64,000 nucleotides of DNA from a virus: the UHGV virus genome UHGV-0279745. The stretch is one strand, 5' to 3'. Positions 12,877 to 27,909 of the stretch are shown one piece after another. The number at the start of each line of letters is the position of its first letter. The first letter of the stretch is position 1. A model generated the notes under the pieces. The model did not search any database. It was not told where the DNA came from and saw only the letters and a program-made list of their open reading frames with translations. The position numbers and the translations under genes are program-made.

Positions 12877-13649
12877 TGCGCATAGTGGATATCCACGATT
12901 ATCGTAATGACCATTTAGCAATCGGTGTGGATGGCAAAATGGTTTCGCTAACCCGTGTACGGAAAGGGTTACTGGAAAAGGACGTCATTCGCGAATCTGA
13001 AGATCCGACCTTTATCATTCTTTCGAACACGAATCAGCTGCAAGGAATTTTCTCCGGTCGCACTGACGGTAAGATTTTCTACATGTCAGCAATCGTTGTG
13101 TTTGCGAAGAAGAACATCAATTTCGCACAACTCAAACGGTTGTTAAATGTGGAGGTGTTTGATATAACCTACCCTGCCAACGACCTAAAACGTCGCGATC
13201 AGTTAATGGCGTTTTTGGGTATGCAGCCGACGTCTATCGACTATGAGCTGACGTTTACTGAAAAACCTGAGGTTCGTACCGATTTACCTGATGTCGATGA
13301 TATTGAATCTCTAACGTTAGAAGAAACGTTTACGATTCCTAAGGTGGCTAATGTCAGTTTGGATACGTACTGCCTGGGTTTGTTAGCGATTGGGGCTGCC
13401 GAAGGGCTGTGCTGTCGTAAAGACGGTAAAGTTGAAGGTATCTTAGTCTATTCGAAAATCAACGAAAAGACGTTTGCCACCGAAGGTTTCTTCTATAATG
13501 ACTGTACTTACGGGAATGCACTCTTAACCACATACTGTCGTATTGCGTATTTAAAGGGTGCAGCCGTGCGTCTTACTTTTCCATACTCAGCACCACCGGC
13601 GATGCCTGGTGTTGAAGTAGAAGCTTTAACTGGCCATTTTATCTTTTAA
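12876..13649 (+). CDS. hypothetical protein
   Basis: 257-aa ORF; start overlaps the Dam stop (TAATG). Confidence 0.55.
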   Translation: MRIVDIHDYRNDHLAIGVDGKMVSLTRVRKGLLEKDVIRESEDPTFIILSNTNQLQGIFSGRTDGKIFYMSAIVVFAKKNINFAQLKRLLNVEVFDITYPANDLKRRDQLMAFLGMQPTSIDYELTFTEKPEVRTDLPDVDDIESLTLEETFTIPKVANVSLDTYCLGLLAIGAAEGLCCRKDGKVEGILVYSKINEKTFATEGFFYNDCTYGNALLTTYCRIAYLKGAAVRLTFPYSAPPAMPGVEVEALTGHFIF

Positions 13650-13658
13650 GGACATTGA

Positions 13659-13886
13659 ATGGAAATCAAACGTATTGTAACCAAAGACAAAAAGATTACT
13701 TACGTCGCAGGTGATAACGAATTCTCGGCGGTTATTAATACTGAGAACGTGCTGATTATCGGTTATCCAGGTAAAGTCATTACTCGTAGCCATCAGCGCG
13801 TGATTGACAAGCTCATCGCCAAAGCAAAAGCGCGTGATGGTGTTGGTTCAGTAGAAACCCATACCGGGTTAACGTTGGCACTCTAA
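13659..13886 (+). CDS. hypothetical small protein
   Basis: 75-aa ORF in co-directional array. Confidence 0.45.
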   Translation: MEIKRIVTKDKKITYVAGDNEFSAVINTENVLIIGYPGKVITRSHQRVIDKLIAKAKARDGVGSVETHTGLTLAL

Positions 13887-13924
13887 CCAGCAGGTAATAT
13901 GACCTCTTAACTGGAGACTTAGAG

Positions 13925-14431
13925 ATGAAAGAGACTCTGGATTTTAATCAGCTTGAGCAGCACGATTTTGATCTCGGTGTTCGCGACTTAGAAGCTGACT
14001 ACGAAACGCGTTGTAAAGAATTCTTTAATCGCTACGGGCAATTGATTACCGGGGCATCTGAAGACACCGAATTCTCGTTAGACGATTTCGAAAAGATTCT
14101 ATCTTGCTTTATCACCGACAGCTTAGCGAAACAGGCGTTGCTGGTAGAACAGAACCTGCAAATGGTGGAGCCTACGGATGCTCACGCCGTGCTAAAAGAA
14201 TCCATTATTCCGAACGACGAAATTATGGATGCGGTAGCAGGTATTCGTGGTACGTTCGACAGCGCTGTGGAAGACTATACCGAGCAGCTTCGTGAGTCTG
14301 GGCTAACGTTATGTGCACCTGCGGGCGAACAGTTACCTTCTGAAGAAGAAACGGAAGAAGCACGCAGTCGCTTAGCACGTTATGTGATTACTTCTATTTT
14401 AGTAGACGATCGCGAAGAAAACGTACTGTAA
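13925..14431 (+). CDS. hypothetical acidic protein
   Basis: 168-aa Asp/Glu-rich ORF; terminator follows. Confidence 0.5.
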   Translation: MKETLDFNQLEQHDFDLGVRDLEADYETRCKEFFNRYGQLITGASEDTEFSLDDFEKILSCFITDSLAKQALLVEQNLQMVEPTDAHAVLKESIIPNDEIMDAVAGIRGTFDSAVEDYTEQLRESGLTLCAPAGEQLPSEEETEEARSRLARYVITSILVDDREENVL

Positions 14432-14435
14432 ACTT

Positions 14436-14474
14436 CCCCTCTCTCCGTTTGGAGGGAGGGAGTATTTATTTTTA
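14436..14474 (+). terminator. rho-independent terminator
   Basis: CCCCTCTCTCC-gttt-GGAGGGAGGG followed by a T-run; near-duplicate of the terminator at 15501. Confidence 0.7.
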
Positions 14475-14528
14475 CGCTTTCGTGTCTAATTATGCACACG
14501 TAAACAAAATTAATTGAGGAACAGCTAA

Positions 14529-14864
14529 ATGTGGTTAAGTGCGATTCACCGTGATTTACCAAAACAAGAAATGGTATTTACTGTTGGCGAGCCAGCAACT
14601 GTAGTAGGTGTTGCTAAGTTCGAAAGGGTAGAAGAAGGTCAATTCGTCGTAGTGGACGACAACGAAAACGAATTCATGCTGTTCCACCCTGAGGTCGATA
14701 CCTCTGAAATCTGTGAGGGTTCTCTTTTGTTGTCCTGGCAAGATCCTGAAACCGGTGCATGGAAGTGGCGTGTCGCTAAACCGACGCTTGAAACAGAATC
14801 TGCATACGTGACTGAACACGTATACGTGTTTGGGGAAACTTATGTCGAACCAAAACCACACTAA
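14529..14864 (+). CDS. hypothetical protein
   Basis: 111-aa ORF. Confidence 0.45.
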   Translation: MWLSAIHRDLPKQEMVFTVGEPATVVGVAKFERVEEGQFVVVDDNENEFMLFHPEVDTSEICEGSLLLSWQDPETGAWKWRVAKPTLETESAYVTEHVYVFGETYVEPKPH

Positions 14865-15150
14865 TACCGACGAAACGAATTTACAGCGCTTGCAACGGGC
14901 ACTAACTGCACCGCTAGGTGGCGAGATTCACGAACGCTGGGTAATTGCGAGGGTGGTAGAAATTGACTATTCTCAGGATCAGTTACTGTTAAATAACTGC
15001 TCGACGAACGTGTCCTTCACGCTACCTCGCACTGTATTCCGTCTTACGCCCAACGTTGATGAAATACTGACTATTGACAGGAAACTTCTGTCGATAGAAC
15101 TACAGCATTTCCCGCTACCTGGTAAGTCGGTTAACATCGCGTTATGCTGA
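14842..15150 (+). CDS. hypothetical protein
   Basis: ORF 14830-15150; ATG 14842 preferred over the TTG at 14830. Confidence 0.45.
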   Translation: MSNQNHTNTDETNLQRLQRALTAPLGGEIHERWVIARVVEIDYSQDQLLLNNCSTNVSFTLPRTVFRLTPNVDEILTIDRKLLSIELQHFPLPGKSVNIALC

Positions 15151-15160
15151 TAATTGTCTA

Positions 15161-15206
15161 AAAAATTTAAGATATATTTCATCTATGTGAGAATTCTCAC
15201 TTAACT
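15161..15206 (+). promoter_or_regulatory. conserved promoter-like motif (copy 2, diverged) with palindromic stem-loop
   Basis: AAGATATATTTCATCTATGTGAGAATTCTCACTTAAC; the GTGAGA...TCTCACTTAAC part matches copy 4. Confidence 0.4.
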
Positions 15207-15223
15207 AAATGGAGTAATCTAAA

Positions 15224-15493
15224 ATGGGTAAGATTTATATTGTTGAAAAACGTGCAGGTAATGTTCTTTCCTATTACGAAGAAGGTAAACCTGAAAAGGT
15301 TAAAACACTCAAACTCGACGGATTTGATGTGAAGAGTTTACGCAAGGGTGTGAAGATTACCTTTAAAGGTCTGACTCGCGTAAATAACTTACACATTGTT
15401 AAGGCCGATGGTACGATGGCTGCGTTAGCGCCTGTCAGTGCTGCGAAAACTACAGCCGGTCGTGGTTGCTACGGTAGCAGTCGTAAGATTTAA
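15224..15493 (+). CDS. hypothetical small protein
   Basis: 89-aa ORF downstream of promoter-like motif copy; terminator follows. Confidence 0.5.
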   Translation: MGKIYIVEKRAGNVLSYYEEGKPEKVKTLKLDGFDVKSLRKGVKITFKGLTRVNNLHIVKADGTMAALAPVSAAKTTAGRGCYGSSRKI

Positions 15494-15500
15494 GCAGTGC

Positions 15501-15540
15501 CCCTCTCTCCGTTAGGAGAGAGGGTACTTTTATTTTTCTT
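15501..15540 (+). terminator. rho-independent terminator
   Basis: CCCTCTCTCC-gtta-GGAGAGAGGG followed by a T-run. Confidence 0.75.
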
Positions 15541-15548
15541 CGAGGTGT

Positions 15549-16040
15549 GTGATGACAACAGTTTTAGTAACAAACGATTACATTTTAGCTGATCGGTTGG
15601 TTGATTATGGCGGTACAGTTAAAGCGACACCTAAATTACACAAGTACAAAAACAAATTCGTTGTTTATACTGGGGAACGCGTATTGGACTCGGATTTCTG
15701 GAAAAAGACGATGATGGCCGCAGTAGAAAAATATTTGATTGAAGAAAAGCGAGCCAAGGTTGAAGGATTATTTAAAGATCTTATCGAAAAAGAGCAGTTT
15801 TACGATCAGTTGATCATTTACACAGCTGAGGAAACACACTGGCTCGGTCTGCTAGAGGGTAAATTTGAATCTCGTGTACTGAATAAAAACACGGTTTGGG
15901 CAACGGGCTCTGGTGGAGGATTTGCGCGGGCTGCTTGGGCAACTGGAATATCAGAAAAGAATATTATTCCATTAGTAGGTTCGATTGATACAGCTACATC
16001 ACAAACGTACGACTTATTTTACAGGAAGCACTTACGATGA
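15549..16040 (+). CDS. hypothetical protein
   Basis: 163-aa ORF. Confidence 0.5.
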   Translation: MMTTVLVTNDYILADRLVDYGGTVKATPKLHKYKNKFVVYTGERVLDSDFWKKTMMAAVEKYLIEEKRAKVEGLFKDLIEKEQFYDQLIIYTAEETHWLGLLEGKFESRVLNKNTVWATGSGGGFARAAWATGISEKNIIPLVGSIDTATSQTYDLFYRKHLR

Positions 16041-16558
16041 AGATAAACGCTGTCTTAATTGGCGATGAAATATTCGTTAATACAAAAACGCAATATCTGT
16101 ATTACGAAGGCATTACTGTAATAGAGGATTATTACGGTAAGTACGGTTGGTGGATTCCGTCCCCTAACTCCTTACGATTAGAAGAAGCATTAACTGCTGA
16201 AGAGAACAAACTAGAAGGAGAGTGGACTTATATTAGTTCTATAATTGATGTTAGTGGACGTATTAAGGATGTCTATTGGGCTAAAGAGTCAGGGTGGCGT
16301 GTTACGCTACACCAACTAACACCAGTAAGATTGTTGTACGACCACTCGGACAGTTCAGAGTTAGCGTTTACCATTGAGACGCTCTCGGTACGTAAGGATC
16401 TAGACAACGTAGGGAAAGGGAAGTGGTCTATTGAGCGCATTGAGGAGATTCTCAGCCGCTTTAAAGCTAACAACCAATTTAAACGTTGGTGTACATTGCC
16501 TGAGTTAGTAGAGGAGTTGAAAAAGCGGGATTGCAAGCCGCTACCTTTTAACCCGTAG
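16037..16558 (+). CDS. hypothetical protein
   Basis: 173-aa ORF; ATGA overlap with upstream gene. Confidence 0.5.
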   Translation: MKINAVLIGDEIFVNTKTQYLYYEGITVIEDYYGKYGWWIPSPNSLRLEEALTAEENKLEGEWTYISSIIDVSGRIKDVYWAKESGWRVTLHQLTPVRLLYDHSDSSELAFTIETLSVRKDLDNVGKGKWSIERIEEILSRFKANNQFKRWCTLPELVEELKKRDCKPLPFNP

Positions 16559-16604
16559 TCTTTTTTACAACTGCGGCTATTTTAATGATTAGGAGAATAT
16601 AGAG

Positions 16605-17000
16605 ATGACCGCAATAATAGGTATAATGTCAAGAAAAGCTGATGTCATTAAGACATTTATCGACCAATATAACAACTCACCGTATACGCGTCTTAGATTG
16701 CGTAAACCCCAGAATAGCACAGAATGGGTTCGCTGGTTTAATATTTGGGATAAAACAATAAGTAAAATCAATCCGTTATTCAGAATTAAGGTTGAGCCTG
16801 CTTATTGGATTGTAATGGAAATATCGCTATTACGTATTCTCGAAAAACGTCCTATAGACGTAAAGACGATGTTTGGAATAGATACGTATAAAATGTTGAA
16901 CAATGGTTTTGTGGGTAATGGGGAACACACATTGTATCAAGCGATGCTGGAAATGTGTTTGTTCGATTTAGTTACTTACGAATTGGGGATTTCAAAATGA
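16605..17000 (+). CDS. hypothetical protein
   Basis: 131-aa ORF. Confidence 0.5.
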   Translation: MTAIIGIMSRKADVIKTFIDQYNNSPYTRLRLRKPQNSTEWVRWFNIWDKTISKINPLFRIKVEPAYWIVMEISLLRILEKRPIDVKTMFGIDTYKMLNNGFVGNGEHTLYQAMLEMCLFDLVTYELGISK

Positions 17001-17461
17001 ATTACTTCGAATCTAAAGAAATTGTTGAGTTGTTTAAACAGCGTGAGAAAACTGCATTCCGTGACTTGTACGATTCTGATTATCGCCCACTGTTTGCGGT
17101 ATTAATGCGTCTGGATAAAGAACCCGAAGTCGCGTTAGCAGAGGTACAGCACCACCACGTCAGTTTCGTATTAACCGAAAACATGAGTCGGTGGGTAGAT
17201 GGTATGCTGATCCGTATTGGGCTCTTGGAAACGCCGCATCGTTGGGAAGTGGTTATTCAGAAATCACTGTTCCCACGGGAAGATATTTTCAACAAATATC
17301 GTCCGAAGCAGTATTACAATCACGACGGGTCACCAAAACGTCCTTTCCTGGCACCCCAACATTTTGTAACCTACGTAACGCTACGTTATAAAGACACTGT
17401 GGTGCCGTTTGACACCTACCTGGAAATGCGTGAGATAATTTTAGGGAAGAATCCAACATGA
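16997..17461 (+). CDS. hypothetical protein
   Basis: ORF 16955-17461; ATG 16997 preferred (ATGA coupling with upstream stop). Confidence 0.5.
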   Translation: MNYFESKEIVELFKQREKTAFRDLYDSDYRPLFAVLMRLDKEPEVALAEVQHHHVSFVLTENMSRWVDGMLIRIGLLETPHRWEVVIQKSLFPREDIFNKYRPKQYYNHDGSPKRPFLAPQHFVTYVTLRYKDTVVPFDTYLEMREIILGKNPT

Positions 17462-17940
17462 ATCAATTTTCTGTTGATGCAGAAAGACTAGCGTCATTTA
17501 AAGAACGTGCTCAGTCTGCAGCCAAAAACGGCTATATCGAAAAAGGGGTTCGTGACACCTGCAAGCTAATCAACGACCATCCACACTTGGCGACAATGTG
17601 GAGTTGTGAAGGTCACGGTATGTATTCTAAGTCACCTGGAAATCTGCATATCGTTTTTGCAACAGACGCTATTGGAAGTCAGATTCCAATGCAGGTTATG
17701 ACTGAACTTGCAAAATCGGATTTACCGAATTTCTGGAATCTTAGTTTGTGTCGTCTTTATATACCAGATGCATACACGGATTTGGTATATCTTGAACCTG
17801 ACTATGGATTAAATACCGATGACACTTCTTACTGGTCTTGGAAAATCGGATACATGTGCTTGATTAATCGTCCCGCGTTAATTGAGGCACGTCAAGCTCT
17901 TTATAAAGCATTTCACACAGTATTAGTTGAGAATAAATAA
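17458..17940 (+). CDS. hypothetical protein
   Basis: 160-aa ORF; ATGA overlap. Confidence 0.5.
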   Translation: MNQFSVDAERLASFKERAQSAAKNGYIEKGVRDTCKLINDHPHLATMWSCEGHGMYSKSPGNLHIVFATDAIGSQIPMQVMTELAKSDLPNFWNLSLCRLYIPDAYTDLVYLEPDYGLNTDDTSYWSWKIGYMCLINRPALIEARQALYKAFHTVLVENK

Positions 17941-18632
17941 TGGCTACCAAACAAAAGAAACCGCGTAACAAAAAGTATAACCCGAAAGCCGCTGCTAACC
18001 GTACTGCGCACACCATTGCTGAAAATGCGCTAAACCGCATTACTTTCGTCGGTAGCTCTATTCGTCCTATCGGTCCGTACGCAGGTCGTGGTTTCCAGTT
18101 TACAACGTCACCGCGTATGCGCATGGCGGCTACCGACATGTTAATCGGTGGTTTGTTTGACGAGCCACGTAACTGGAAACTGTGGGTTGCGCATCTGTAC
18201 GAAACAGATAATGGTGTGCAAGCAGAAACCATCGTGGCAACGCTTGACGACTACACGTTAAGTGATTTCTGTCAACACGGTGACAAGATCATCAAGTCGC
18301 TACGTGAGACGGAAGAAAACTACTTCGGTTATGCTTTCGTTGCTGCACCTAACGAACGTTATGATTTTGACCAGGGAGAAGAACGCTTACTGGAAAACTT
18401 CATGCATTCGGGTCTGTTAGACAAATCCTTACACTTACCTGAAGAAGAACTGATGGTTACACGTAAGGACATGGTAACGTTGTTGTTAGCCGATCGTGGT
18501 CGTTTTGATATTACCGAATCACATGTACGTAAAGTACAGAAACTTGTGGATAAGGTAGACGAAACTGACCTGGACACTAACGAAGTCGCATCCCGTATCC
18601 AATCGGTAGTGAATCAGGAAGAGGATTACTAA
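17940..18632 (+). CDS. hypothetical protein (basic N-terminus)
   Basis: 230-aa ORF; TAATG overlap. Confidence 0.55.
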   Translation: MATKQKKPRNKKYNPKAAANRTAHTIAENALNRITFVGSSIRPIGPYAGRGFQFTTSPRMRMAATDMLIGGLFDEPRNWKLWVAHLYETDNGVQAETIVATLDDYTLSDFCQHGDKIIKSLRETEENYFGYAFVAAPNERYDFDQGEERLLENFMHSGLLDKSLHLPEEELMVTRKDMVTLLLADRGRFDITESHVRKVQKLVDKVDETDLDTNEVASRIQSVVNQEEDY

Positions 18633-18634
18633 GC

Positions 18635-19156
18635 GTGATAGCGCGACTTGCGAGTTGGTTTAAGCAACGTCGGGCAAAGGCGGTCGAATGGCCGCCTATT
18701 ACGCACGATGAAAAGGTGGTTGCTTTTCTGAACTATAACAAAGACTTGAAAAGATTAGGCGAGTTAATGCGCTTAACGGAACGTCAGGTTTTTGCTAAGA
18801 TTTCAAGCAGCGCGTTACGTAAAGAAGTGTTCCCACACTTATCCTTTATGGAACAAATCCATGCTGAAAGTGTGGAGAAATTTCTTTCGTTAGTAAATAA
18901 TGAGACTCCACGAATACGGTACTCGGTTACGGATTCATCTGATGCTGTCGGTACGGTCGATTTCGGACGATTGTATCAGAGCATTAAAGACGTGGGCCAT
19001 ATACATGTTAAACGAGTATCAGAAACATCTGTAGTGATTTATCACCATACTGAGCATGATTTGTTAGGGTGCGTTATAACACTAACAAATTTACATAGTT
19101 TTTACGTTGATTTACTTACAGGGTTTTATCCAGAACCATGGTGTTTTATACGATGA
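18635..19156 (+). CDS. hypothetical protein
   Basis: 173-aa ORF with GTG start. Confidence 0.5.
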   Translation: MIARLASWFKQRRAKAVEWPPITHDEKVVAFLNYNKDLKRLGELMRLTERQVFAKISSSALRKEVFPHLSFMEQIHAESVEKFLSLVNNETPRIRYSVTDSSDAVGTVDFGRLYQSIKDVGHIHVKRVSETSVVIYHHTEHDLLGCVITLTNLHSFYVDLLTGFYPEPWCFIR

Positions 19157-19362
19157 AAAGAGCTAATGGATACATCATCTCAGCGATTGTTTCAACCGTG
19201 CTGGTTGTGACGATGCTGATGTTTTATGTCCGTGTGTCAGATGACTCGCGCAAAGAAAGCCTTTATCGTGAGTGTATGTCAGGAAAGACCGTAGACGATC
19301 CACGTTACGCCGAATTAGTAATGGCGTGTACGGAATACGCTAAACGAATGGGAGATGGATGA
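19138..19362 (+). CDS. small membrane-anchored protein (paralog 1 of a pair)
   Basis: One hydrophobic helix (YIISAIVSTVLVVTMLMFYV) then LYREC...C domain, paralogous to the next ORF. Confidence 0.45.
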   Translation: MVFYTMKRANGYIISAIVSTVLVVTMLMFYVRVSDDSRKESLYRECMSGKTVDDPRYAELVMACTEYAKRMGDG

Positions 19363-19559
19363 TGAAAATTTGGTTGCCGATTCTAGTTTTTATCCTTATC
19401 GCAGGTGCACTAGCAAGTGCTGAGTACGATAATCGTGTTCTAGAAACAAAACGTGAATTGTATCAGGATTGTATAAAGGATTACACACCCGGTACAGAGC
19501 TTCATGCACAGGCTGTGAAAAGTTGTGCGTTGATGGCTGAATCGCAGACTCGTTCCTAA
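19359..19559 (+). CDS. small signal-peptide/membrane protein (paralog 2 of a pair)
   Basis: N-terminal MMKIWLPILVFILIAGALASA then LYQDC...C, paralogous to the previous ORF. Confidence 0.45.
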   Translation: MMKIWLPILVFILIAGALASAEYDNRVLETKRELYQDCIKDYTPGTELHAQAVKSCALMAESQTRS

Positions 19560-19933
19560 TGCGTATCTGGACGTTACAGCTCGCTAAGTGGCGGTTAGCT
19601 AAGCAGAAAGGGTTTCACGCAGTGGATATCACTGTGAAGTCAGGGCGAAAGGAACTCGCCCCCGACTGGGATTTCTTAATGGCGTATAAAAACTCTGCAA
19701 AGGATGCAGCTGCTGAACGCGAGTACACGATAAAGTATTTGTACAAACTCGAACGACTGTTAGATACCGACGCCGAAACTTTAGTGTCGTTACTTAGGCA
19801 CGATGACTTGGTTTTGATGTGTTATTGTCCCGCAGGTAAGTTTTGCCATCGTCATCTACTGGCGAGCAAGCTTCAAGAGGTGGGATTGATATTCGGTATC
19901 GACATTGTGTTGTGTGGAGAATTAACGGACTGA
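19559..19933 (+). CDS. hypothetical protein with CxC...CHRH motif (DUF4326/DUF488-like?)
   Basis: LVLMCYCPAGKFCHRHLL resembles the conserved Cys/CHR motif of DUF4326/DUF488-type families; recall-level only. Confidence 0.4.
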   Translation: MRIWTLQLAKWRLAKQKGFHAVDITVKSGRKELAPDWDFLMAYKNSAKDAAAEREYTIKYLYKLERLLDTDAETLVSLLRHDDLVLMCYCPAGKFCHRHLLASKLQEVGLIFGIDIVLCGELTD

Positions 19934-19960
19934 TTTGATTTTTTAGCTGTAAAATGACTT

Positions 19961-20005
19961 CCTACCGCCCGATTCTATGGGCGGTAGGTGTTTTTATTTT
20001 TTTTG
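19961..20005 (+). terminator. rho-independent terminator
   Basis: CCTACCGCCC-gattctat-GGGCGGTAGG followed by a T-run. Confidence 0.75.
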
Positions 20006-20020
20006 ATCTGGGAGGTTTTA

Positions 20021-20581
20021 GTGACTACTTACGTACCTGATTTAAGTCTGGCCTCAGCCGAATTAGTGGTCGCTTTAATCAACCACGATAACGGTTCACG
20101 GTTGTCTCTAAACGAAATCCGTATTAGCAACACTATGGCAAACCCGTCCCCGACCACTTCGCGTCGTAACACACTGACAGAGATTACAAAAATCAGGAAA
20201 CCTGATGGTGCTTCTGTGGTTGTTTATTACGACCGTCTGGATGCGGACGAAGTGTTAGCGTCTGAACCTATTTTGATTTCGTTAGACGGTACTGAAGACA
20301 ACCTTCGTGACATTTTAGGTGTTGTAAATGAATTCTGCGGAACGAACTTACAACCCGAAGATTTACGTGCTGCAGATATCACCTTAGGTAACGAACCCAT
20401 TGCTGTTAACGTTGCTGACGATTCTCCTGCGTGGATGAATGCGTTCATGGTAACGTTATTCGATACAACAGAACGAGCATTAGCAAACGAAGATGATGCG
20501 ATCTTCTGTATTGGTGATGATGCCGTTCTTACCTTTGAGGTTCCAGATGACGATTCAGCTGAAGAAAACCCGGCTACATGA
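20021..20581 (+). CDS. family-X paralog (fibre-associated hypothetical protein)
   Basis: Start placed at GTG 20021, 5 nt after GGAGG; the ORF-track start 19988 lies in the terminator. N-terminus VPDLSLASAELVVALINHD and ...VVVYYDRL match five other paralogs. Confidence 0.55.
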   Translation: MTTYVPDLSLASAELVVALINHDNGSRLSLNEIRISNTMANPSPTTSRRNTLTEITKIRKPDGASVVVYYDRLDADEVLASEPILISLDGTEDNLRDILGVVNEFCGTNLQPEDLRAADITLGNEPIAVNVADDSPAWMNAFMVTLFDTTERALANEDDAIFCIGDDAVLTFEVPDDDSAEENPAT

Positions 20582-20783: not shown

Positions 20784-23700
20784 ATGGCTAAAGCGGTAAA
20801 GAAAATTCGTTTACACGATTTACGTCCATACACCGGGGATATCGGTGAAGGCGTTTTACTTTTTTCGAAAGACGAAAGGGATTATCAGTTACCTGTCCGC
20901 GAGATTGTTGCGGATATTGACACCGTCAGAAACGCGGTTGCTGACGCACAAACGGCGGCGGCCAAATCGCAACAGTCTGCAACAGAAGCCACACAAGCAA
21001 AAGACTTAGCAGAAACAGCGAAGCAACAAACTGACACGTTAGCTTCCACAGTTAGCGAGCAAGCGGGAACCGTTGCCACTAAAACTGCCGAGGTTAGCAA
21101 AAAACACGCTGAAGTTTTAGCCGCGAAAACTGCCGTAGATACTGTATTACAGTCGGTAAATGAGAAAGCTCAAGCTGTCGCTACAAGCGAACAATCGGTG
21201 ACGGCTGCAGCGGCTGACGTAACTAAGAAAGCAGAAACGGTTACGCAACAGGCCGGACAAGTCCAACAGACGGCTACCGGTGTCGAGAATACTGCGGCTT
21301 CAGTTGAGGCCAGTAAGGGCGCAGTGGAGAAGATTGCTGCACAGGTCGCGAAAGATAAAGAAAGTTCAGAAGGCGCAGCAACACGTTCGGAGTCAGCTGC
21401 CTTACGTGCGGAGAAAATCGCTGCGCAGGGCTTAATCGACGCTAGTACAACCGGTAAAGGTATCGTTAAACTTAACGATACACTGACTAGCGAATCCGTG
21501 ACTGAGGCCGCCACACCGTCCACGGTTAAACAGCTGAATGACGAATTACAGTTAAAAGCCAATAAACATTCGCCGAATTTTACGGGTAAACCGTCATCCC
21601 CAACACCCCCGAAAGATTCAAACGACACGAGTATTTCCACAACGGCCTGGGTGCGTGACGCGATTGCGGAACTGGTTGGTTCTTCACCCGAGACGTTAAA
21701 TACCTTAGCGGAATTAGCTGAGGCGTTAGGTAATGACCCTAACTTCGCAACAACGATTACTGGGGAACTTGCGCAGAAACAACCTCTCAGTCCGTTGCTC
21801 ACCGCCATTGCCGCAGTCACCACAGCGGCAAATAAACTCATGTATTTCACTGGCAGTAATAAAGTCGGATTAACGGATTTTACAGAAACTGCCAGATCCT
21901 TGTTAGCGAAAGGGTCAACTGCGGATATCATCAATTTCTTGGGATTAAAGGCTACTGTAGATAAAGCGAATGGCGCGTTACAGAAAAACTCTAACGGCGC
22001 TGATATCCCAGATAAAGAAACGTTTGCTCGCAATATCGGTCTGTCTCCTGACACCTATCTGCGTTTCCGTGGCGAAATGCCAGTAGATGCTGATATTAAC
22101 ACATTTGCTCCAGATGCCAATTACACAGGAACGTGGGCTAAGTCGACGTCAACCAATGCGTCGATGGCAAAACATTTCCCAGAAGACGGTGCAGTCGGTT
22201 ATCTGGAAGTGTATAAAGCCGGTAATTACAGTGGCGCACAGCGTTTTACCTGCCGTAATGGTAACGTGTACAACCGTATGCTGAGTGGCGCGTGGAATGG
22301 TGCCAATGGACCCTGGTCACCGTGGAGAATGGTAACTACTGGTGTACGTCCATTATCTACCTCTATAGACTTGAACAGTTTGGGTGGCGCTGAGCATATG
22401 GGTAACTGGCGAAACTCAAGCAGTTCGCTGGCTGTTTTTAGCAGACATTACCCTGAAGAAGGTGGCGGTGCGCAAGGCGTACTAGAAGTAATGGAAGGTG
22501 GTCTTTTCGGACGGTTGCAGCGATACACCACACGTCGTGGTACGATGTATGTTCGTGGTTTGACCGCAACGTGGGATTCATCAAACCCGCAATGGGAAGA
22601 TTGGATTCAGGTTGGTTATCAGACTGACGGTGCTTTCTTTAAAGCCAATTTTAACGATCTCGTTAAACCGGGACGTTTCAGTGTCACTGGTGAAGCAACT
22701 AACGGTCCACTTACCGGTTCTTCTGGTGAAACCATATTAGGCGTTTGTGAAGTTACCTTACGCTTAGACGGTACAGGGGTCGAACAGAATTATACTACAT
22801 ACGGTACGGGTACAGAAACTAAAGGTCGTAAATTCCAACGTATCCGTACGGGTAACGCTTGGAGTGACTGGCGTGAGGTTTTCACATCGTATTCGCTTCC
22901 GTTGGTATTAGGTATCGGCGGTGAACGTGCGAATGTTGATCCTTTAGACTGGCAAACCTATGACTTTAAACCAGGTGAGTTAATCTGTACGCCGCTTAAC
23001 ACCATGAAAAATATTCCTACGGGAATGGATTGGGGTGTTATTGACGGTAACTTAGTTAGCATTCTGGTTGGTCCATCAGATGGCGCTACATCAGGCCGGA
23101 GTATGTTGGTTTGGCGTAGTACGGTGTCTACTGCCAACTATCGATTCTTTGCAGTACGTATCGCTGGTGATAAAGGTAGTCGTACGATTACACCACGCCA
23201 GATGCCTGTATTGAATGCAGCACACACCTGGGCAGAAAAACAGACCTTTGCAAAAGGGTTAGCAGGTGAGTTAACAGGCAATGCTTCAACCGCAACGAAA
23301 TTAAAGACCGCACGTAGAATTGGTGGGGTCGCCTTCGACGGTAGTGGTGATATTAACCTCCCAGGTGTTAACCAACAGGGTAATCAAAACACCACGGGTA
23401 ATGCCGGGACAGCCACTAAACTTCAAACTGCCAGAAATATTAACGGTGTGAGATTCGATGGTTCTGCTGACATCAATATCAACACCCTGGTAGGTCGTGG
23501 TCGGGTTACTGCACTAACCGGTTCAAACAAAGGTACGCCTGGTATTCAGATGTACGAAGTTTACAATAACGGTTATCCGACCGCTTATGGTAACTTACTG
23601 CATTTGGGTGGTTCTGCCGCATTAGGTGAAGGTGAACTGTTAATCGGTTGGTCGGGCACGAGTGGTGCGCACGCGCCCGTTTATATTCGTAGTCGACGTG

Positions 23701-25385
23701 ATACAGCGGATGCGCCGTGGTCAGATTGGGCACAAGTTTATACTGCCCGTGATAGTATTCCTGGTGTAAATACCACAGGTAATCAAGATACTACTGGTAA
23801 CGCTGCTACCGCGACGAAACTGAAAACTGCTCGCAGAATCGGGGGCGTTACCTTTGACGGTACTGGGGATATCAATTTACCGGGGGTTAACCAGCAAGGT
23901 AACCAGAATACGACAGGTAATGCAGCAACCGCTACTAAGTTACAAACAGCACGTAAGATCGGCGGTGTTAACTTTGACGGTTCGCAAGACATTAGTCTGC
24001 CCGGTGTGAACCAAACCGGTAACCAATCGACTACGGGGAATGCTGCGACAGCGACTAAGCTCCAGACTGCGCGAAATATAGGTGGCGTAGCTTTTGATGG
24101 TACTAAAGACATCAACTTACCTGGCGTAAACCAAACGGGCAATCAGTCGACCACCGGAAACGCGGCCACTGCAACAAAATTGCAGACAGCGCGTACCATT
24201 AACGGTATCGCATTTGACGGCACCAAAAACATCGAAATAACGGCTGAAAGTTTAAATCTTGGCCAAACTGTAGAATTGGCCGGTGGGTCATTGCAGAAGA
24301 AACAGAATGGTGCCGATATTCCAGATAAGAGAAAATTCTTACGAAATGTTGGTGCCGCGAACACAACAACTGTGTCTTTTAATGGTGGTGCCGGATGGTT
24401 CAAACTGGCAACTGTAACGATGCCGCAAGCCAGTTCCGTGGTTTACATAAGCCTGATTGGTGGTGCAGGGTTTAACGTTGGTTCCCCACATCAAGCAGGT
24501 ATCTCTGAGCTGGTTCTGCGCGCAGGAAATGGGAATCCAAAAGGTATTACTGGTGCGTTATGGCGACTGACCTCAGTCGGCTTCACTAATTTTGCATGGG
24601 TGAATACATCTGGTGACACTTACGATATTTATGTTGAAATAGGTAATTACGCCACCGGTGTTAATATTCAGTGGGATTACACTAGTAATGCCAACGTAAC
24701 GATTCATACATCGCCAAGTTATACGGCTAATAAACCCGCAGGACTAACAGACGGTACCGTCTATCTGATTTACAGCACACACAACAAGCCTAACGCTGGT
24801 GACATCGGTGCGTTACCGTCAGGGGGCGGTACTATAGGTGGCGATTTAACCGTTAACGGTAAATTGGTCACTAAGTACCCTGATTTTCGAATCGCTTACG
24901 GCAACTACGGCTTTATGTTACGTAACGATGGTGCCAATACCTATTTCTTAGTAACCGACGCCGGTCAAGCTGCAACGGGTTCCTGGAACGGTCTACGTCC
25001 GTTGTATTTTAATAATGCTAACGGTCAAGTAACCTTTGGTCATAACGTTACTGGCAGCGGTAACGGTTCGTTTAACGACGTACAGATTCGTTCTGACCGT
25101 CGTAACAAACGTAATCTGGTGAAACTAGATAAAGCTTTGGATCGGTTAGAGTTACTAACCGGTTATTTGTACGAAATTCAGCATCCTGACGACGGCTGGC
25201 AGACCTCTGTAGGTCTAATTGCTCAAGACGCATTAGAAGCGTTACCTGAACTTGTGTCTGAGGATGATGATGTCATTTCAGGCGAAAAACGTTTACGTCT
25301 AAACTACAATGGTGTTATTGCGCTGTTAGTAGAGGGTATGAAAGCGTTGCGTCAAGAGATTAACGAAATCAAAGGGAGATCCTAG
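20784..25385 (+). CDS. long tail fibre protein with C-terminal intramolecular chaperone (S74-like) domain
   Basis: 1533 aa: Ala/Thr/Gln-rich N-terminal region, six 40-aa repeats (GNQxTTGNAATATKLQTAR..GV.FDG..DINLPGVNQ), and C-terminal SDRRNKRN...GLIAQDALEALPELV resembling the autoproteolytic chaperone domain of endosialidase-type fibres. Confidence 0.88.
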   Translation: MAKAVKKIRLHDLRPYTGDIGEGVLLFSKDERDYQLPVREIVADIDTVRNAVADAQTAAAKSQQSATEATQAKDLAETAKQQTDTLASTVSEQAGTVATKTAEVSKKHAEVLAAKTAVDTVLQSVNEKAQAVATSEQSVTAAAADVTKKAETVTQQAGQVQQTATGVENTAASVEASKGAVEKIAAQVAKDKESSEGAATRSESAALRAEKIAAQGLIDASTTGKGIVKLNDTLTSESVTEAATPSTVKQLNDELQLKANKHSPNFTGKPSSPTPPKDSNDTSISTTAWVRDAIAELVGSSPETLNTLAELAEALGNDPNFATTITGELAQKQPLSPLLTAIAAVTTAANKLMYFTGSNKVGLTDFTETARSLLAKGSTADIINFLGLKATVDKANGALQKNSNGADIPDKETFARNIGLSPDTYLRFRGEMPVDADINTFAPDANYTGTWAKSTSTNASMAKHFPEDGAVGYLEVYKAGNYSGAQRFTCRNGNVYNRMLSGAWNGANGPWSPWRMVTTGVRPLSTSIDLNSLGGAEHMGNWRNSSSSLAVFSRHYPEEGGGAQGVLEVMEGGLFGRLQRYTTRRGTMYVRGLTATWDSSNPQWEDWIQVGYQTDGAFFKANFNDLVKPGRFSVTGEATNGPLTGSSGETILGVCEVTLRLDGTGVEQNYTTYGTGTETKGRKFQRIRTGNAWSDWREVFTSYSLPLVLGIGGERANVDPLDWQTYDFKPGELICTPLNTMKNIPTGMDWGVIDGNLVSILVGPSDGATSGRSMLVWRSTVSTANYRFFAVRIAGDKGSRTITPRQMPVLNAAHTWAEKQTFAKGLAGELTGNASTATKLKTARRIGGVAFDGSGDINLPGVNQQGNQNTTGNAGTATKLQTARNINGVRFDGSADININTLVGRGRVTALTGSNKGTPGIQMYEVYNNGYPTAYGNLLHLGGSAALGEGELLIGWSGTSGAHAPVYIRSRRDTADAPWSDWAQVYTARDSIPGVNTTGNQDTTGNAATATKLKTARRIGGVTFDGTGDINLPGVNQQGNQNTTGNAATATKLQTARKIGGVNFDGSQDISLPGVNQTGNQSTTGNAATATKLQTARNIGGVAFDGTKDINLPGVNQTGNQSTTGNAATATKLQTARTINGIAFDGTKNIEITAESLNLGQTVELAGGSLQKKQNGADIPDKRKFLRNVGAANTTTVSFNGGAGWFKLATVTMPQASSVVYISLIGGAGFNVGSPHQAGISELVLRAGNGNPKGITGALWRLTSVGFTNFAWVNTSGDTYDIYVEIGNYATGVNIQWDYTSNANVTIHTSPSYTANKPAGLTDGTVYLIYSTHNKPNAGDIGALPSGGGTIGGDLTVNGKLVTKYPDFRIAYGNYGFMLRNDGANTYFLVTDAGQAATGSWNGLRPLYFNNANGQVTFGHNVTGSGNGSFNDVQIRSDRRNKRNLVKLDKALDRLELLTGYLYEIQHPDDGWQTSVGLIAQDALEALPELVSEDDDVISGEKRLRLNYNGVIALLVEGMKALRQEINEIKGRS
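23265..23483 (+). repeat. tandem 120-bp (40-aa) repeat block 1 within the tail fibre gene
   Basis: Two units encoding G(E/N).(T/N)TGNA.TATKL.TAR.I.GV.FDGS.DIN.... Confidence 0.8.
23778..24240 (+). repeat. tandem 120-bp (40-aa) repeat block 2 within the tail fibre gene
   Basis: About four consecutive units GNQ(D/N/S)TTGNAATATKLQTAR.IGGV.FDG..DI.LPGVNQ. with high DNA-level identity. Confidence 0.85.
25091..25382 (+). other. C-terminal intramolecular chaperone / autoproteolysis domain of the tail fibre
   Basis: SDRRNKRN...LTGYLYEI...GLIAQDALEALPELV matches the conserved pattern of endosialidase-type C-terminal chaperone domains as recalled. Confidence 0.7.
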
Positions 25386-26167
25386 TGGCAGTTGTCGGCG
25401 TAGGTGGTTGGATTGGTTCTTCAGCAAAAGCTGAAACTGGTAACGATTGGATGTCTGGCGCGATGCGCACACTTGGTGTGCCGGTTCCAGGCTGGATGTC
25501 GCAATTGGCGGGAAAATCAAAAGAGGTCCATTATTCTATTGGTGCTAACCATAGCTATAATAAGGATACTCTTATTAACTATTTACGTTCTTTAGGCTCT
25601 ACTGCTGTCGTTGTGACTATTACGGGGGATTTAGTGTCTTATAGTAGCGGAGTTCCTTGTTTAGAGTTCCCTGGCGACCTACCGAACTCCTCCATTACAC
25701 TCGTTATCAATCCTGGGGTTACAGTATACGGCAGAGGAGGCAACGGTGGTTCTAACTCGCCAGGCGGTGCAGGTGGAACCGCAGTACAGAACGGAATAGG
25801 AAACAGGTTACGTATAACTAACCGTGGCGCTATTGCCGGAGGCGGTGGCGGCGGTGGCGGCGGTAACAGGGGTAGACTAATATTTGGTGGTGGCGGTGGT
25901 CGCCCATTCGGTGCTGGTGGGTCTTCCTCTCATATGAGTTCCGGTGCAACTGCTGGTACTATTTCCGCTCCTGGTAAAGGATCTGTTGGTGAGGGGTCTC
26001 TTAGTGCATATACAGGCGGTTCGGGTGGTAATGTCGGTGCTGCTGGAGGAAGATGTAATACTCAAGGTAACGGTACAGAATATAACGGCGGAGCAGCTGG
26101 TAAAGCTGTTACTGGTAATGCGCCAAGATGGGACGCAGTAGGTGCAATATACGGTTCACGTGTTTAA
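25385..26167 (+). CDS. glycine-rich protein (poly-Gly tract), fibre-associated
   Basis: GTG start overlaps the fibre stop by 1 nt (TAGTG); contains GGGGGGGGGN and many GG/GGS tracts. Confidence 0.6.
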   Translation: MAVVGVGGWIGSSAKAETGNDWMSGAMRTLGVPVPGWMSQLAGKSKEVHYSIGANHSYNKDTLINYLRSLGSTAVVVTITGDLVSYSSGVPCLEFPGDLPNSSITLVINPGVTVYGRGGNGGSNSPGGAGGTAVQNGIGNRLRITNRGAIAGGGGGGGGGNRGRLIFGGGGGRPFGAGGSSSHMSSGATAGTISAPGKGSVGEGSLSAYTGGSGGNVGAAGGRCNTQGNGTEYNGGAAGKAVTGNAPRWDAVGAIYGSRV

Positions 26168-26242: not shown

Positions 26243-26686
26243 ATGAGCGCTGCTGGTAGTAAATTAGGATTGGGTAGACCTTTTATGATGAGTCAAATGG
26301 TGGGAAGATCTATGGGCTGTAAAATTGCAACTGCTGCATATAGCGATTCTTTAGGTAAGAAATGGGGCGCGGTAGGGCCAAGCTGGCCGTTAAACCAGAA
26401 AAATCAGGGAACCATTCAAAACGCGGGTAACTGCGGGGTGGGAACTTTAGTAGGTATCGAGTTACAGTTAACGACGATAGTTGCTAACGCAAAACCCACT
26501 TTAGCGGTTTACTTACAAGGTGGGAGAGCCTCTAACATTACCGTAAATTTAGGTGGCAACACTTGTACGCTGACCTATCAGCAGGTTATTAACGGACAGC
26601 ATTATTACTGGACTAATAACATCAGCGCTGCGTTCCAAAACGTAATGAAATCAACAGGCGCGCTACGTGATTTGCGAATTAGTTAA
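26243..26686 (+). CDS. paralog of the glycine-rich protein N-terminus (5' end uncertain)
   Basis: Homology to the N-terminus of the 25385 ORF (GW[IV]GSSA+xETGxxWMS[AG]A) begins in frame upstream of ATG 26243, directly after the TAA of the preceding gene. Confidence 0.5.
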   Translation: MSAAGSKLGLGRPFMMSQMVGRSMGCKIATAAYSDSLGKKWGAVGPSWPLNQKNQGTIQNAGNCGVGTLVGIELQLTTIVANAKPTLAVYLQGGRASNITVNLGGNTCTLTYQQVINGQHYYWTNNISAAFQNVMKSTGALRDLRIS

Positions 26687-26773: not shown

Positions 26774-27289
26774 ATGGGACAATTCGTGCCGGATTTGTCA
26801 CTGACCTCACCTAACATGGTTATTTCGTTGATCAATCACGACCTTCAGCTTGATCTGCAAGAAACCGATGTTGAGTTTAGCGAACTAAAATCTAGCGACG
26901 CGATGGATCGTGATACCACTGCTGTTGTAAAGATCAAACGTCCGGGCAGCAGAACGTTACAGATCTATTACAATCGTTTAACCGCAGAGCGGTGGTTAAA
27001 CCAGCAACCTATTCTGGTAAAGGTCACCGGTAATGGCTTTACTACGCACGATCTGATCGACGGAATTAATGCGGTCTGTGGTAGTAATTTACAAGCCGAC
27101 GATCTTACCGACGAATCATTTACCGTAGGGAGGGACGCTGTAACATTACAAGTTTCACCCAACTCGCTAGGTTATAAAGGCCAATTCTCCGTTCTGGTTT
27201 TCGGTAACGATGAAGAAGCCGCAGTAACAAAAGACAACGATTTGATCGTTACTGCAGATAATCGTGTCTTAACATTCGGAGGTCACTAA
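26774..27289 (+). CDS. family-X paralog (fibre-associated hypothetical protein)
   Basis: MGQFVPDLSLTSPNMVISLINHD and ...LQIYYNRL are paralogous to 20021-20581; precedes the second fibre-like gene. Confidence 0.55.
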   Translation: MGQFVPDLSLTSPNMVISLINHDLQLDLQETDVEFSELKSSDAMDRDTTAVVKIKRPGSRTLQIYYNRLTAERWLNQQPILVKVTGNGFTTHDLIDGINAVCGSNLQADDLTDESFTVGRDAVTLQVSPNSLGYKGQFSVLVFGNDEEAAVTKDNDLIVTADNRVLTFGGH

Positions 27290-27909
27290 TGGCTGAACTG
27301 GTAGGAAAGGTACGCGTTCACGAACTACCGACACTTTCAGAAGACGTCACAGGTGTAGTCGTCTTAGCGTCTAAAGAACAAACTGAATACCAACTCCCGA
27401 TTGAAAAATTAGGGGGTGGTGAGGTTACAGTGAGTCCGTCGGCGAATAACATCCTTAAGTCTAACAGTGATGGGTTGTTTGTTAATGGTGCGCATCCGAT
27501 TGTACCAAAAATAGATGCAAAAACCGTATCGGGAAATATGGTAGTAGAAAAAACGTTGACGGGTGGTGCGGTAATCTGCAAAACAACGGTTGACGTTAAT
27601 AACAGGCTGGGTGTTACGCAATTATCAGGGGTATCAATTTATAGCCAGTGTCTGTTGGAAAATAAACTGGTTTACCTGGCAGCAGATGGTGGTATTATTG
27701 ATGCGTACTTCTACGTTAGTGGTACAAAAACCACAGCGAGTACAATAACCCACACCATTCGGGTTGTCTTAGCGAAAGTACCTTCTAAAGTTGTCGATAT
27801 CACCGATTTGTCTGAAACCGAAGTACAATACGAGAATAGTAATTTACCTGTTAAGATCGTTATTAAACATCTTGCAGGGACAACACTTTCTCAGAACGGA
27901 ATGAAATAA
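27289..27909 (+). CDS. short tail-fibre-like protein (fibre N-terminal domain paralog)
   Basis: N-terminus MAELVGKVRVHELPTLSEDVTGVVVLASKEQTEYQLPIEKL is paralogous to the N-terminus of the 1533-aa fibre; ATGA coupling with upstream gene. Confidence 0.6.
   Translation: MAELVGKVRVHELPTLSEDVTGVVVLASKEQTEYQLPIEKLGGGEVTVSPSANNILKSNSDGLFVNGAHPIVPKIDAKTVSGNMVVEKTLTGGAVICKTTVDVNNRLGVTQLSGVSIYSQCLLENKLVYLAADGGIIDAYFYVSGTKTTASTITHTIRVVLAKVPSKVVDITDLSETEVQYENSNLPVKIVIKHLAGTTLSQNGMK

What the first reader, a model, noticed from the sequence alone, without database searches (positions are those of the whole stretch)
23265..24240. High-identity tandem 40-aa repeats inside the long tail fibre gene
Six units of GNQxTTGNAATATKLQTAR.IGGV.FDG..DINLPGVNQ. 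occur in two blocks separated by a ~110-aa insert, with extensive DNA-level identity between units. Such repeats are likely sites of recombination-driven length variation and assembly errors. The minus-strand ORFs 23783-24142 and 24143-24403 are antisense artefacts of these repeats.
Basis: seen in the sequence. Interest (0 to 1): 0.45.

Follow-up and report, generated by a model that had tools for sequence, protein, structure and literature searches.

The report
Diverged 40-residue tail-fibre shaft repeats
The six 40-amino-acid repeats are real copies of a common building block of phage tail-fibre shafts; related phages carry different numbers of them, but their DNA is too diverged to cause homologous recombination or assembly errors, so the feature is ordinary.

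Summary
The 1533-aa tail-fibre gene (20784-25385, +) has six in-register 40-aa units: two, then a 93-aa insert, then four (23259-24257). Units are 47-85% identical as protein but only 46-70% as DNA. The longest exact DNA repeat is 10 nt, and Tandem Repeats Finder reports nothing.

The unit (consensus GNAATATKLxTARxIGGVxFDG) is widespread in phage fibres: 4,887 cluster representatives, 1-14 copies each, period mostly 40 aa. It matches no Pfam or NCBIfam model. Its only matches among solved structures are the trimerising C-terminal spike of phage L Dec and a stretch of ΦM1 tail fibre gp47. The insert is a fibre knob / β-prism domain.

Copy number does vary. Among 120 close relatives, including two finished circular ~222-kb replicons, block 1 always has 2 units and block 2 has 4, 3 or 2. 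Steps are exactly 40 aa and leave chimeric units with 2-4-nt junction microhomology. Goslar phage has 7+4.

So length variation is supported. DNA-identity-driven recombination and assembly error are not. The two antisense ORFs are artefacts. Verdict: an ordinary new member of a known kind; low interest.

The parts
20784..25385 (+). Long tail-fibre gene (1533 aa). It is a mosaic: Phage_fiber_2 repeat at aa 221-261, knob-like domains at about aa 430-800, the six units plus knob, an exchangeable distal module, Gp34_trimer at aa 1342-1408, and a Peptidase_S74 intramolecular chaperone at aa 1437-1491.
23259..23498 (+). Repeat block 1: units U1 (23259-23378) and U2 (23379-23498). This block has 2 units in all 120 close relatives.
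23499..23777 (+). Insert between the blocks (aa 906-998): an all-beta knob / beta-prism fibre domain, conserved together with its flanking units in Goslar and many other fibres.
23778..24257 (+). Repeat block 2: units U3 (23778-23897), U4 (23898-24017), U5 (24018-24137), U6 (24138-24257). This is the copy-number-variable block (4, 3 or 2 units in relatives). U4 and U5 are the units lost or fused.
24291..24353 (+). Linker motif LQKKQNGADIPDKRKFLRNVG (aa 1170-1190), the second copy of a motif also present at aa 399-419. It marks the start of the horizontally exchanged distal module.
   Evidence: 87-90% nt identity of window 24289-24700 to tail-fibre segments in 217 E. coli genomes and 96 plasmid records.
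25385..26167 (+). gp38-type receptor-recognising adhesin encoded directly downstream of the fibre gene (context only).
   Evidence: Pfam GP38 6e-69 and Gp38_N 1.5e-15; phrog_2056
23783..24142 (-). Antisense ORF (119 aa, TTG start). It is a by-product of stop-poor antisense phase 2 across U3-U5, not a gene.
24143..24403 (-). Antisense ORF (86 aa, TTG start), in the same antisense phase and separated from the previous ORF by one stop. Not a gene.

Best explanation
The six units are copies of a widespread ~40-residue module of trimeric phage tail-fibre shafts (core GNAATATKLxTARxIGGVxFDGxxxIxLPGVN). They sit in the long tail fibre of a Goslar-like jumbo phage of Enterobacteriaceae. The local layout is rod (2 units), knob (beta-prism domain), rod (4 units), then an exchangeable receptor-binding end that works with a gp38-type adhesin.

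Inferred: by homology to the C-terminal spike of phage L Dec, each unit folds only in the trimer, into a short intertwined beta segment. A tandem array is therefore a stiff spacer, and its copy number sets the distance between the knob and the receptor-binding tip.

Shown: protein sequence is held by strong purifying selection while synonymous sites between units are randomised. The units are therefore old duplicates and are not substrates for homology-dependent recombination or for assembly collapse.

Shown: copy number nevertheless changes in nature in whole-unit steps. Inferred: this happens by rare in-register deletions at 2-4-nt microhomologies, and only in-register products survive because they still fold.

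Shown: the last unit and the adjacent LQK..NGADIPDK linker form the seam at which different distal modules are joined.
For: - Units and their statistics.
- Tail-fibre identity and mosaic make-up.
- Family breadth: 4,887 representatives at E<=1e-3; 1-14 units per protein; period 40 aa in 328 of about 410 spacings.
- Profile matches to the Dec spike, residues 95-133 (6e3c, E 2.9e-5), and to PhiM1 gp47, residues 314-353 (8vbx, E 1.6e-4).
- Dec spike biology: residues 99-134 are unfolded in the monomer and carry nearly all trimer contacts. AF2 and CD indicate antiparallel beta, three strands per protomer (PMC11398494; PMC6449081).
- Knob fold.
- Goslar gp90 has 7 units + the same knob + 4 units.
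- Copy-number series 4/3/2 with block 1 constant.
- Finished circular replicons with 2+3 and 2+4.
- Chimeric units and breakpoints, with at least three junction types.
- No concerted evolution: the same unit in different genomes is 91-97% identical in DNA, while different units within one genome are 46-70% identical.
- Seam: aa 801-1040 are 96-99% conserved among relatives, and at least 5 unrelated distal modules start at unit position ~33 of the last unit. DNA homology to P1-like and other phage-plasmid fibre segments starts at 24289.
Against: - No structure of the unit was obtained here. The AF2 monomer model of U2-knob-U3-U6 had pLDDT 39, with the units unstructured, so the beta-spike fold rests on homology to Dec, whose own spike is modelled rather than solved.
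- The Dec and gp47 matches are to a variant of the unit with a 7-residue insertion, and the E-values are modest.
- The direction of change (deletion rather than gain) and the microhomology mechanism are inferred from present-day sequences. The true parental sequences are unknown.
- No functional data link unit number to fibre length or host range.
Confidence: 0.75

Rival explanations
1. One reading: near-identical DNA repeats make this stretch a hot spot for homologous (unequal) recombination and for short-read assembly collapse or expansion, so the copy number in the window is unreliable.
For: Copy number does differ among relatives in whole-unit steps. In Goslar one pair of units shares a 23-nt exact run.
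Against: In the window the units are 46-70% identical in DNA, with a longest exact repeat of 10 nt. Tandem Repeats Finder finds nothing. Breakpoints in chimeric units share only 2-4 nt. The 2+4 layout is reproduced in many independent assemblies and in one finished circular record.
Confidence: 0.07
2. Copy-number differences arise mainly by exchange with other phages' fibre genes. Recombination at the conserved unit motif between different genomes would import arrays of another length, rather than deletion occurring within one lineage.
For: The fibre is a mosaic shared with P1 S, P2 H, Mu S and T-even gp34/gp37. Several alleles of unit 2 of block 2 (RRIGGVV, SIGGVA, KIGGVN) circulate among relatives in both 3- and 4-unit arrays. 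Distal modules are swapped at the last unit.
Against: Flanks of the 120-nt gap in L002 are about 97% identical to the window on both sides, and the chimeric unit is explained at 111/120 nt by the window's own U4 and U5. Block 1, the knob and U3 are 96-99% conserved.
Confidence: 0.2
3. The units are not mere spacers. They would be weak carbohydrate-binding sites along the shaft, so that copy number tunes avidity for surface polysaccharide.
For: The authors of the Dec structure raise carbohydrate binding by the Dec beta-spike as a hypothesis (PMC6449081). Unit surfaces are rich in N, Q, T and G.
Against: There is no binding evidence for any member. The strongest conservation falls on core-type residues (L15, F26 and G28 invariant; I21 and G23 nearly so), as expected for a structural module. 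Receptor recognition is already accounted for by the gp38 adhesin and the distal module.
Confidence: 0.08
4. The minus-strand ORFs 23783-24142 and 24143-24403 are real overlapping genes.
For: They are open for 119 and 86 codons.
Against: They have TTG starts and no Pfam or PHROG match. They lie in the antisense phase that is stop-poor across the whole gene. Their length would change by 40 codons with each unit lost in relatives. Their repetitive sequence simply mirrors the sense repeats.
Confidence: 0.02

Closest known systems
Escherichia phage vB_EcoM_Goslar gp90 'tail fiber repeat protein' (QBO63883.1, MK327938.1)
   Same: It has the same unit (about 70-85% identity), the same knob between two blocks, and 4 units in the second block. 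The gene neighbourhood matches too: a small DUF7941-type virion protein upstream and a fibre accessory gene downstream.
   Different: Goslar has 7 units in block 1 against 2 here. It has a different N-terminus and a glycine-rich C-terminal end followed by a Caudo_TAP assembly protein, instead of the S74 chaperone plus gp38 adhesin. There is no clear one-to-one orthology of internal units.
C-terminal spike of the phage L decoration protein Dec (PDB 6e3c, residues ~95-134)
   Same: It carries a single copy of the motif (NAETADKLSTARTI...SFDGSANVTI), matched by the unit profile at E 2.9e-5. It is experimentally a trimerisation element that is unfolded in the monomer and forms an intertwined beta spike.
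   Different: It has one copy, not an array, and a 7-residue insertion between RTI and FDG. It sits on a capsid decoration protein, not a fibre. Its atomic structure is modelled, not solved.
Pectobacterium phage PhiM1 tail fibre gp47 (PDB 8vbx)
   Same: It has one motif copy at residues 314-353 in a trimeric tail fibre (PMC11440229).
   Different: It is a podophage fibre described as mostly helical bundles, and it carries the insertion variant of the unit. I could not check whether this stretch is resolved in the map.
Pfam PF03406 Phage_fiber_2 / the T4 gp34-gp12 alpha-beta fibrous repeat
   Same: It is another ~40-residue fibre repeat, and one copy is present in this same protein at aa 221-261. 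Its structure is known in T4 gp34 (PMC5537660).
   Different: It is a different motif. None of the six units matches PF03406, even at E<=10.
T4 gp34 P3/P4 beta-prism domains and R-type pyocin fibre knobs
   Different: There is no detectable sequence similarity. The flanking shaft in gp34 has no clear sequence repeat.
Duplications in the T4 gp37 adhesin flanked by short repeated motifs, and motif-mediated shuffling of tail-fibre genes (Tetart et al. 1996; Sandmeier 1994; Haggard-Ljungquist et al. 1992). Cited from my own knowledge; not read here.
   Same: These are precedents for fibre length or segment number changing by recombination at short conserved motifs, and for conserved motifs acting as seams between exchanged modules.
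   Different: They involve different motifs and proteins. In the present case the changes are whole 40-aa shaft units.

Membership tests
40-residue tail-fibre shaft repeat (Dec-spike-like; GNAATATKLxTARxIGGVxFDG) | Match to the motif consensus | tested here: met
   The six units each score E 1e-23 to 1e-27 against the unit profile. The family consensus from 668 distinct units of 149 diverse proteins is GNQnTTGNAATATkLaTARTIGGVSFDGsANInLPGVN. Invariant residues are L15, F26 and G28.
40-residue tail-fibre shaft repeat (Dec-spike-like; GNAATATKLxTARxIGGVxFDG) | Head-to-tail arrays with a 40-aa period | tested here: met
   Spacing in the window is exactly 40 aa within blocks. Across the family, the period is 40 aa in 328 spacings and 37 aa in 51.
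40-residue tail-fibre shaft repeat (Dec-spike-like; GNAATATKLxTARxIGGVxFDG) | Host protein is a phage tail fibre | tested here: met
   Pfam Gp34_trimer, Peptidase_S74 and Phage_fiber_2; many tail-fibre PHROGs; PDB matches to Mu S, T4 gp34 and S16 gp37; tblastn to P1 S, P2 H and T6 gp34-37.
40-residue tail-fibre shaft repeat (Dec-spike-like; GNAATATKLxTARxIGGVxFDG) | Folds as an intertwined trimeric beta segment | not testable with these tools
   Only monomer prediction is available. That model had pLDDT 39, with the units unstructured, which fits but does not prove folding only in the trimer (Dec).
Pfam PF03406 Phage_fiber_2 | Profile match above the gathering score | tested here: not met
   The six units give no PF03406 match at E<=10. 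The single PF03406 match in the protein is at aa 221-261.
High-identity DNA tandem repeat (recombination- or assembly-prone) | Long stretches of near-identical DNA between copies | tested here: not met
   DNA identity is 46-70% and the longest exact repeat is 10 nt. Tandem Repeats Finder finds nothing.
Fibre knob / beta-prism domain (T4 gp34 P3-P4, R-pyocin knob) | All-beta fold superposable on known knobs | tested here: met
Fibre knob / beta-prism domain (T4 gp34 P3-P4, R-pyocin knob) | Sequence-level family membership | tested here: not met
   No Pfam, NCBIfam or PDB sequence match for the insert or its profile.
T2/S16-type gp37 tip with gp38 adhesin | gp38 adhesin gene next to a fibre that has a C-terminal intramolecular chaperone | tested here: met
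   GP38 6e-69 and Gp38_N for 25385-26167; Peptidase_S74 at aa 1437-1491 of the fibre. Match to the S16 gp37 tip 6f45 over aa 1378-1531, E 3e-13.

The most novel reading that the evidence does not exclude
The 4/3/2-unit polymorphism of block 2 could be an adaptive length-tuning device. In-register loss (and perhaps regain) of a 40-aa trimeric shaft module would shift the receptor-binding tip by a few nanometres to match the depth of the host's O-antigen or capsule layer. On this reading, synonymous divergence between units is kept high to hold the rate of such changes low. The evidence does not exclude this: the polymorphism is recurrent (at least 3-4 junction types), occurs within each distal-module class, and block 1 never varies. 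However, nothing here shows selection. The one hint of active codon diversification (same-codon fraction 0.305 against 0.351 on permutation, P=0.007) was not reproduced in Goslar.
Probability: 0.15. Interest if true: 0.45.

Novelty: new member of a known kind. Interest (0 to 1): 0.22.

Why it matters
It matters little for biology in general. Repeats in tail-fibre shafts and mosaic exchange of fibre modules are long established.

It has practical value in three ways:
- The copy number in this window can be trusted, and the two antisense ORFs should not be annotated.
- This very common 40-aa module (thousands of protein clusters) has no Pfam or NCBIfam model and no solved structure. A curated model would improve fibre annotation, and a trimer structure would also settle the disputed fold of the Dec spike.
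- The natural 2/3/4-unit series, on an otherwise 93-99% identical fibre, is a ready-made set for testing how shaft length affects adsorption.

Tried and rejected
- Tandem Repeats Finder found no array at min_score 30.
- Pfam and NCBIfam scans of the repeat block and of 66 diverse units gave nothing meaningful.
- A PDB sequence search with the four-unit block hit only the designed 'Cake' propellers, a periodicity artefact of 40-residue repeats. The hits were rejected.
- Megablast against phage records found no close relative of the gene or of window 1-20000.
- A literature search for the motif as a text string found nothing relevant. The searches found no paper describing this unit, and one search failed on a term that was too short.
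- AF2 on U2-knob-U3-U6 with a shallow alignment gave pLDDT 39, and I did not use it as evidence.
- I tested whether units avoid sharing codons, which would indicate selection against DNA identity. The window gave 0.305 against 0.391 expected from gene codon usage, and against 0.351 by within-repeat permutation (P=0.007). Goslar gave 0.344 against 0.349, and three relatives were not significant. I therefore read the sites as saturated and dropped the idea of active diversification.
- I looked for one-to-one orthology between window units and Goslar units. There was none apart from features shared by block-terminal units.
- The knob profile against PDB sequences gave only a non-significant resemblance to the WSXWS strand of the leptin receptor (E about 2). 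This is not used.
- The L004 'U5|U6 chimera' fits poorly (90/120). It is better read as a diverged U6 joined to another distal module, so I did not count it as a clean junction.
Full report
**What is at the coordinates.** The finding lies inside one long plus-strand ORF, 20784-25385, of 1533 aa.
- Pfam places a Phage_fiber_2 repeat at aa 221-261, a Gp34_trimer domain at aa 1342-1408 and a Peptidase_S74 intramolecular chaperone at aa 1437-1491. The next gene, 25385-26167, is a gp38-type adhesin (GP38, E 6e-69).
- PHROGs, PDB sequence matches (Mu S, T4 gp34, S16 gp37 tip) and tblastn (P1 S, P2 H, lambda-type stf, T6/PST gp34-gp37) all identify a mosaic long tail fibre.
- Anchoring on the TKL tripeptide gives six in-register 40-aa units: U1 aa 826-865, U2 866-905, U3 999-1038, U4 1039-1078, U5 1079-1118 and U6 1119-1158. 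In nucleotides this is 23259-24257, with a 93-aa insert at 23499-23777.
- A profile built from the units finds exactly these six, and nothing else, in a six-frame scan of the 64-kb window, each at E 1e-23 to 1e-27.

**What is not there.** The claim of extensive DNA-level identity is wrong.
- Units are 47-85% identical as protein but 46-70% as DNA.
- The longest in-register exact run is 10 nt, and the longest exact repeated k-mer anywhere in the region is also 10 nt. Residues that are identical between units use the same codon only 21-44% of the time.
- Tandem Repeats Finder reports no array even at its lowest threshold. The seed-and-extend repeat finder returns only one weak 32-nt family.
- I asked whether codon sharing is even lower than chance, which would point to selection against DNA identity. 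The window gave 0.305, against 0.351 ± 0.021 on permutation within the repeats (P=0.007).
- The independent 10-unit array of Goslar gave 0.344 against 0.349, and three relatives were not significant.
- I therefore conclude only that synonymous sites between units are randomised. The units are old duplicates held by purifying selection on the protein.

**What the unit is.**
- A whole-library HMMER search with aa 820-1175 found 4,887 cluster representatives at E<=1e-3 and 439 at E<=1e-30.
- In the best 149, the unit occurs 1-14 times per protein. The period is 40 aa in 328 spacings and 37 aa in 51.
- The family consensus is GNQnTTGNAATATkLaTARTIGGVSFDGsANInLPGVN. L15, F26 and G28 are invariant.
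- No Pfam or NCBIfam model matches it. In particular it is not the PF03406 repeat that occurs once at aa 221-261.
- A profile of 66 diverse units matched two solved entries. One is residues 95-133 of the phage L decoration protein Dec (6e3c, E 2.9e-5). The other is residues 314-353 of Pectobacterium phage ΦM1 tail fibre gp47 (8vbx, E 1.6e-4). Both carry a variant of the unit with a 7-residue insertion.
- The Dec literature gives the only experimental handle. Residues 99-134 are unfolded in the monomer, carry nearly all the contacts that hold the trimer together, and form an intertwined spike. AlphaFold2 and circular dichroism indicate this spike is antiparallel beta, with three strands per protomer. 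An earlier model drew it as a triple β-helix on the basis of remote similarity to tail fibres (PMC11398494; PMC6449081).
- My monomer AF2 model of the units was of low confidence (pLDDT 39). That is what one would expect for a trimer-only fold, but it is not evidence.

**What the insert is.**
- The 93-aa insert has no sequence-level match.
- With an alignment of 19 diverse homologues it folds at pLDDT 89 and pTM 0.79 into a six-stranded all-beta domain.
- In T4 gp34 such domains interrupt a thin trimeric β shaft (PMC5537660).
- The local architecture is thus rod (2 units), knob, rod (4 units).
- The same unit-knob-unit module is found in Goslar gp90, annotated 'tail fiber repeat protein', which has 7 units + knob + 4 units.
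- In other fibres, unrelated globular domains sit between units. One close relative (P0067) has an extra domain of about 215 aa inserted within block 2.

**Copy number among relatives.**
- The protein search returned 120 relatives at 80-100% identity from contigs of up to about 226 kb.
- Block 1 always has 2 units. Block 2 has 4 units in most, 3 in about 34 and 2 in 4. Lengths fall in exact 40-aa steps (1533, 1493, 1453).
- Two finished circular records confirm this outside short-read assemblies. E. coli 98232 'plasmid' NZ_CP173450.1 (221,873 bp) carries 2+3. Enterobacter ludwigii NZ_CP134650.1 (222,441 bp) carries 2+4.
- The shortened arrays contain chimeric units. In L002 the second unit of block 2 is U4 up to unit nt 27-29 and U5 after that (111/120 nt explained). 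In L003 it is U4 up to nt 54-58 and then U6 (102/120).
- Junctions share only GC and CGTA respectively, and the flanks are about 97% identical to the window.
- Classifying all relatives gives at least three junction types plus several allelic patches. Both 3- and 4-unit arrays occur within single distal-module classes. The changes are therefore recurrent.
- U4 and U5 are only 68% identical in DNA while the flanks are 97% identical between genomes. A recent duplication therefore cannot have produced the 4-unit state. Loss from 4 to 3 or 2, or import of a shorter array, is the parsimonious direction (inference).
- There is no concerted evolution. The same unit in different genomes is 91-97% identical in DNA, against 46-70% between different units of one genome.

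**The repeat block is also a seam.**
- Among relatives, aa 801-1040 are the best conserved part of the protein (96-99%). Identity collapses after U6, to a minimum of 12-15%.
- At least five unrelated distal modules begin at about position 33 of the last unit.
- In the window the distal module opens with LQKKQNGADIPDKRKFLRNVG (24291-24353). This is the second copy of a motif also present at aa 399-419.
- From 24289 onward the DNA is 87-90% identical to tail-fibre segments in 217 E. coli genomes and 96 plasmid records. These include P1-like plasmids and the 48-kb ATCC 25922 phage-plasmid, where the segment lies next to an invertase gene.

**Antisense ORFs.** The ORFs 23783-24142 and 24143-24403 lie in one antisense phase and are separated by a single stop. 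That phase is the stop-poorest across the whole gene (47 stops in 1533 codons, against 79 and 97 in the other two). Both ORFs start with TTG, and neither matches anything in Pfam or PHROGs.

**Mechanism, with shown and inferred steps marked.**
- Shown: six conserved units; family-wide tandem arrays; a knob between the blocks; whole-unit copy-number polymorphism with chimeric junctions; a module seam at the last unit; DNA divergence between units.
- Inferred from Dec: each unit forms a short trimer-dependent beta segment, so arrays are rigid spacers of a few nm per unit.
- Inferred: copy number changes by rare microhomology-scale deletions, and selection passes only in-register products.
- Not shown: any effect on fibre length or host range.

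**Verdict.** This is an ordinary structural repeat of phage tail fibres, a new member of a known kind.
- The prediction of length variation is borne out, but not for the reason given.
- The DNA-identity and assembly-error claims are refuted for this sequence.

Noticed in passing
whole window; related records NZ_CP173450.1 (221,873 bp) and NZ_CP134650.1 (222,441 bp): The phage of this window has only faint nucleotide matches to the jumbo phages Asesino, STsAS and SPAsTU. It recurs as contigs of up to about 226 kb and as complete circular 'plasmid' records in E. coli and Enterobacter, and its proteins are also named from Shigella and Salmonella assemblies. This suggests a jumbo phage carried as an episome.
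   Followed up: partly
window 21978-22040 and 24291-24353: The motif LQK..NGADIPDK..F.RN.G occurs twice in the fibre. The second copy is exactly where high DNA identity to P1-like and other phage-plasmid fibre segments begins; in ATCC 25922 that segment sits next to an invertase gene. It looks like a general splice point for distal fibre modules.
   Followed up: partly
window 26774-27289 and 27289-27909: A second fibre-like cassette follows the first. It has a DUF7941-like paralogue of 19988-20581, followed by a 206-aa protein whose N-terminus parallels the fibre's N-terminus (MAELVGKVRVHELP... against MAKAVKKIRLHDLRP...). This region differs in gene content among relatives.
   Followed up: no
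window 25385-26167 and 26243-26686: There are two gp38-related genes in a row: a full GP38 adhesin with a glycine-rich region, and a shorter protein matching only Gp38_N and phrog_1121. Relatives carry one or both.
   Followed up: no
window 23700-23777 (aa ~973-998 of the fibre): The knob ends in RSRRDTADAPWSDWAQVYT, which resembles the WSXWS strand of cytokine-receptor FnIII domains (leptin receptor). The E-value is about 2, so this is not significant.
   Followed up: no
locus L005 (relative P0067), gene 6001-11127: A close relative of 1708 aa has an extra globular domain of about 215 aa inserted between units of block 2, giving a 2+2+2 layout. This shows that units can flank inserted domains.
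   Followed up: no
window 21170-22054 (-): A 294-aa antisense ORF lies inside the Ala/Thr/Gln-rich N-terminal part of the fibre gene. It is probably another antisense artefact.
   Followed up: no
window 46361-61417 (-): Four adjacent, mutually related virion structural protein genes (434, 1726, 1400 and 1439 aa; phrog_2163, 7449, 8078 and 7557) form a paralogous set of the kind seen in jumbo phages.
   Followed up: no
window 41992-43314 (-): A radical SAM domain protein (phrog_1802, E 2e-114) is encoded in the phage window.
   Followed up: no
window 23259-24257: In-register codon sharing between units is slightly below the permutation expectation (0.305 against 0.351, P=0.007). The effect is absent in Goslar's array, so it remains unexplained and may be chance.
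   Followed up: yes
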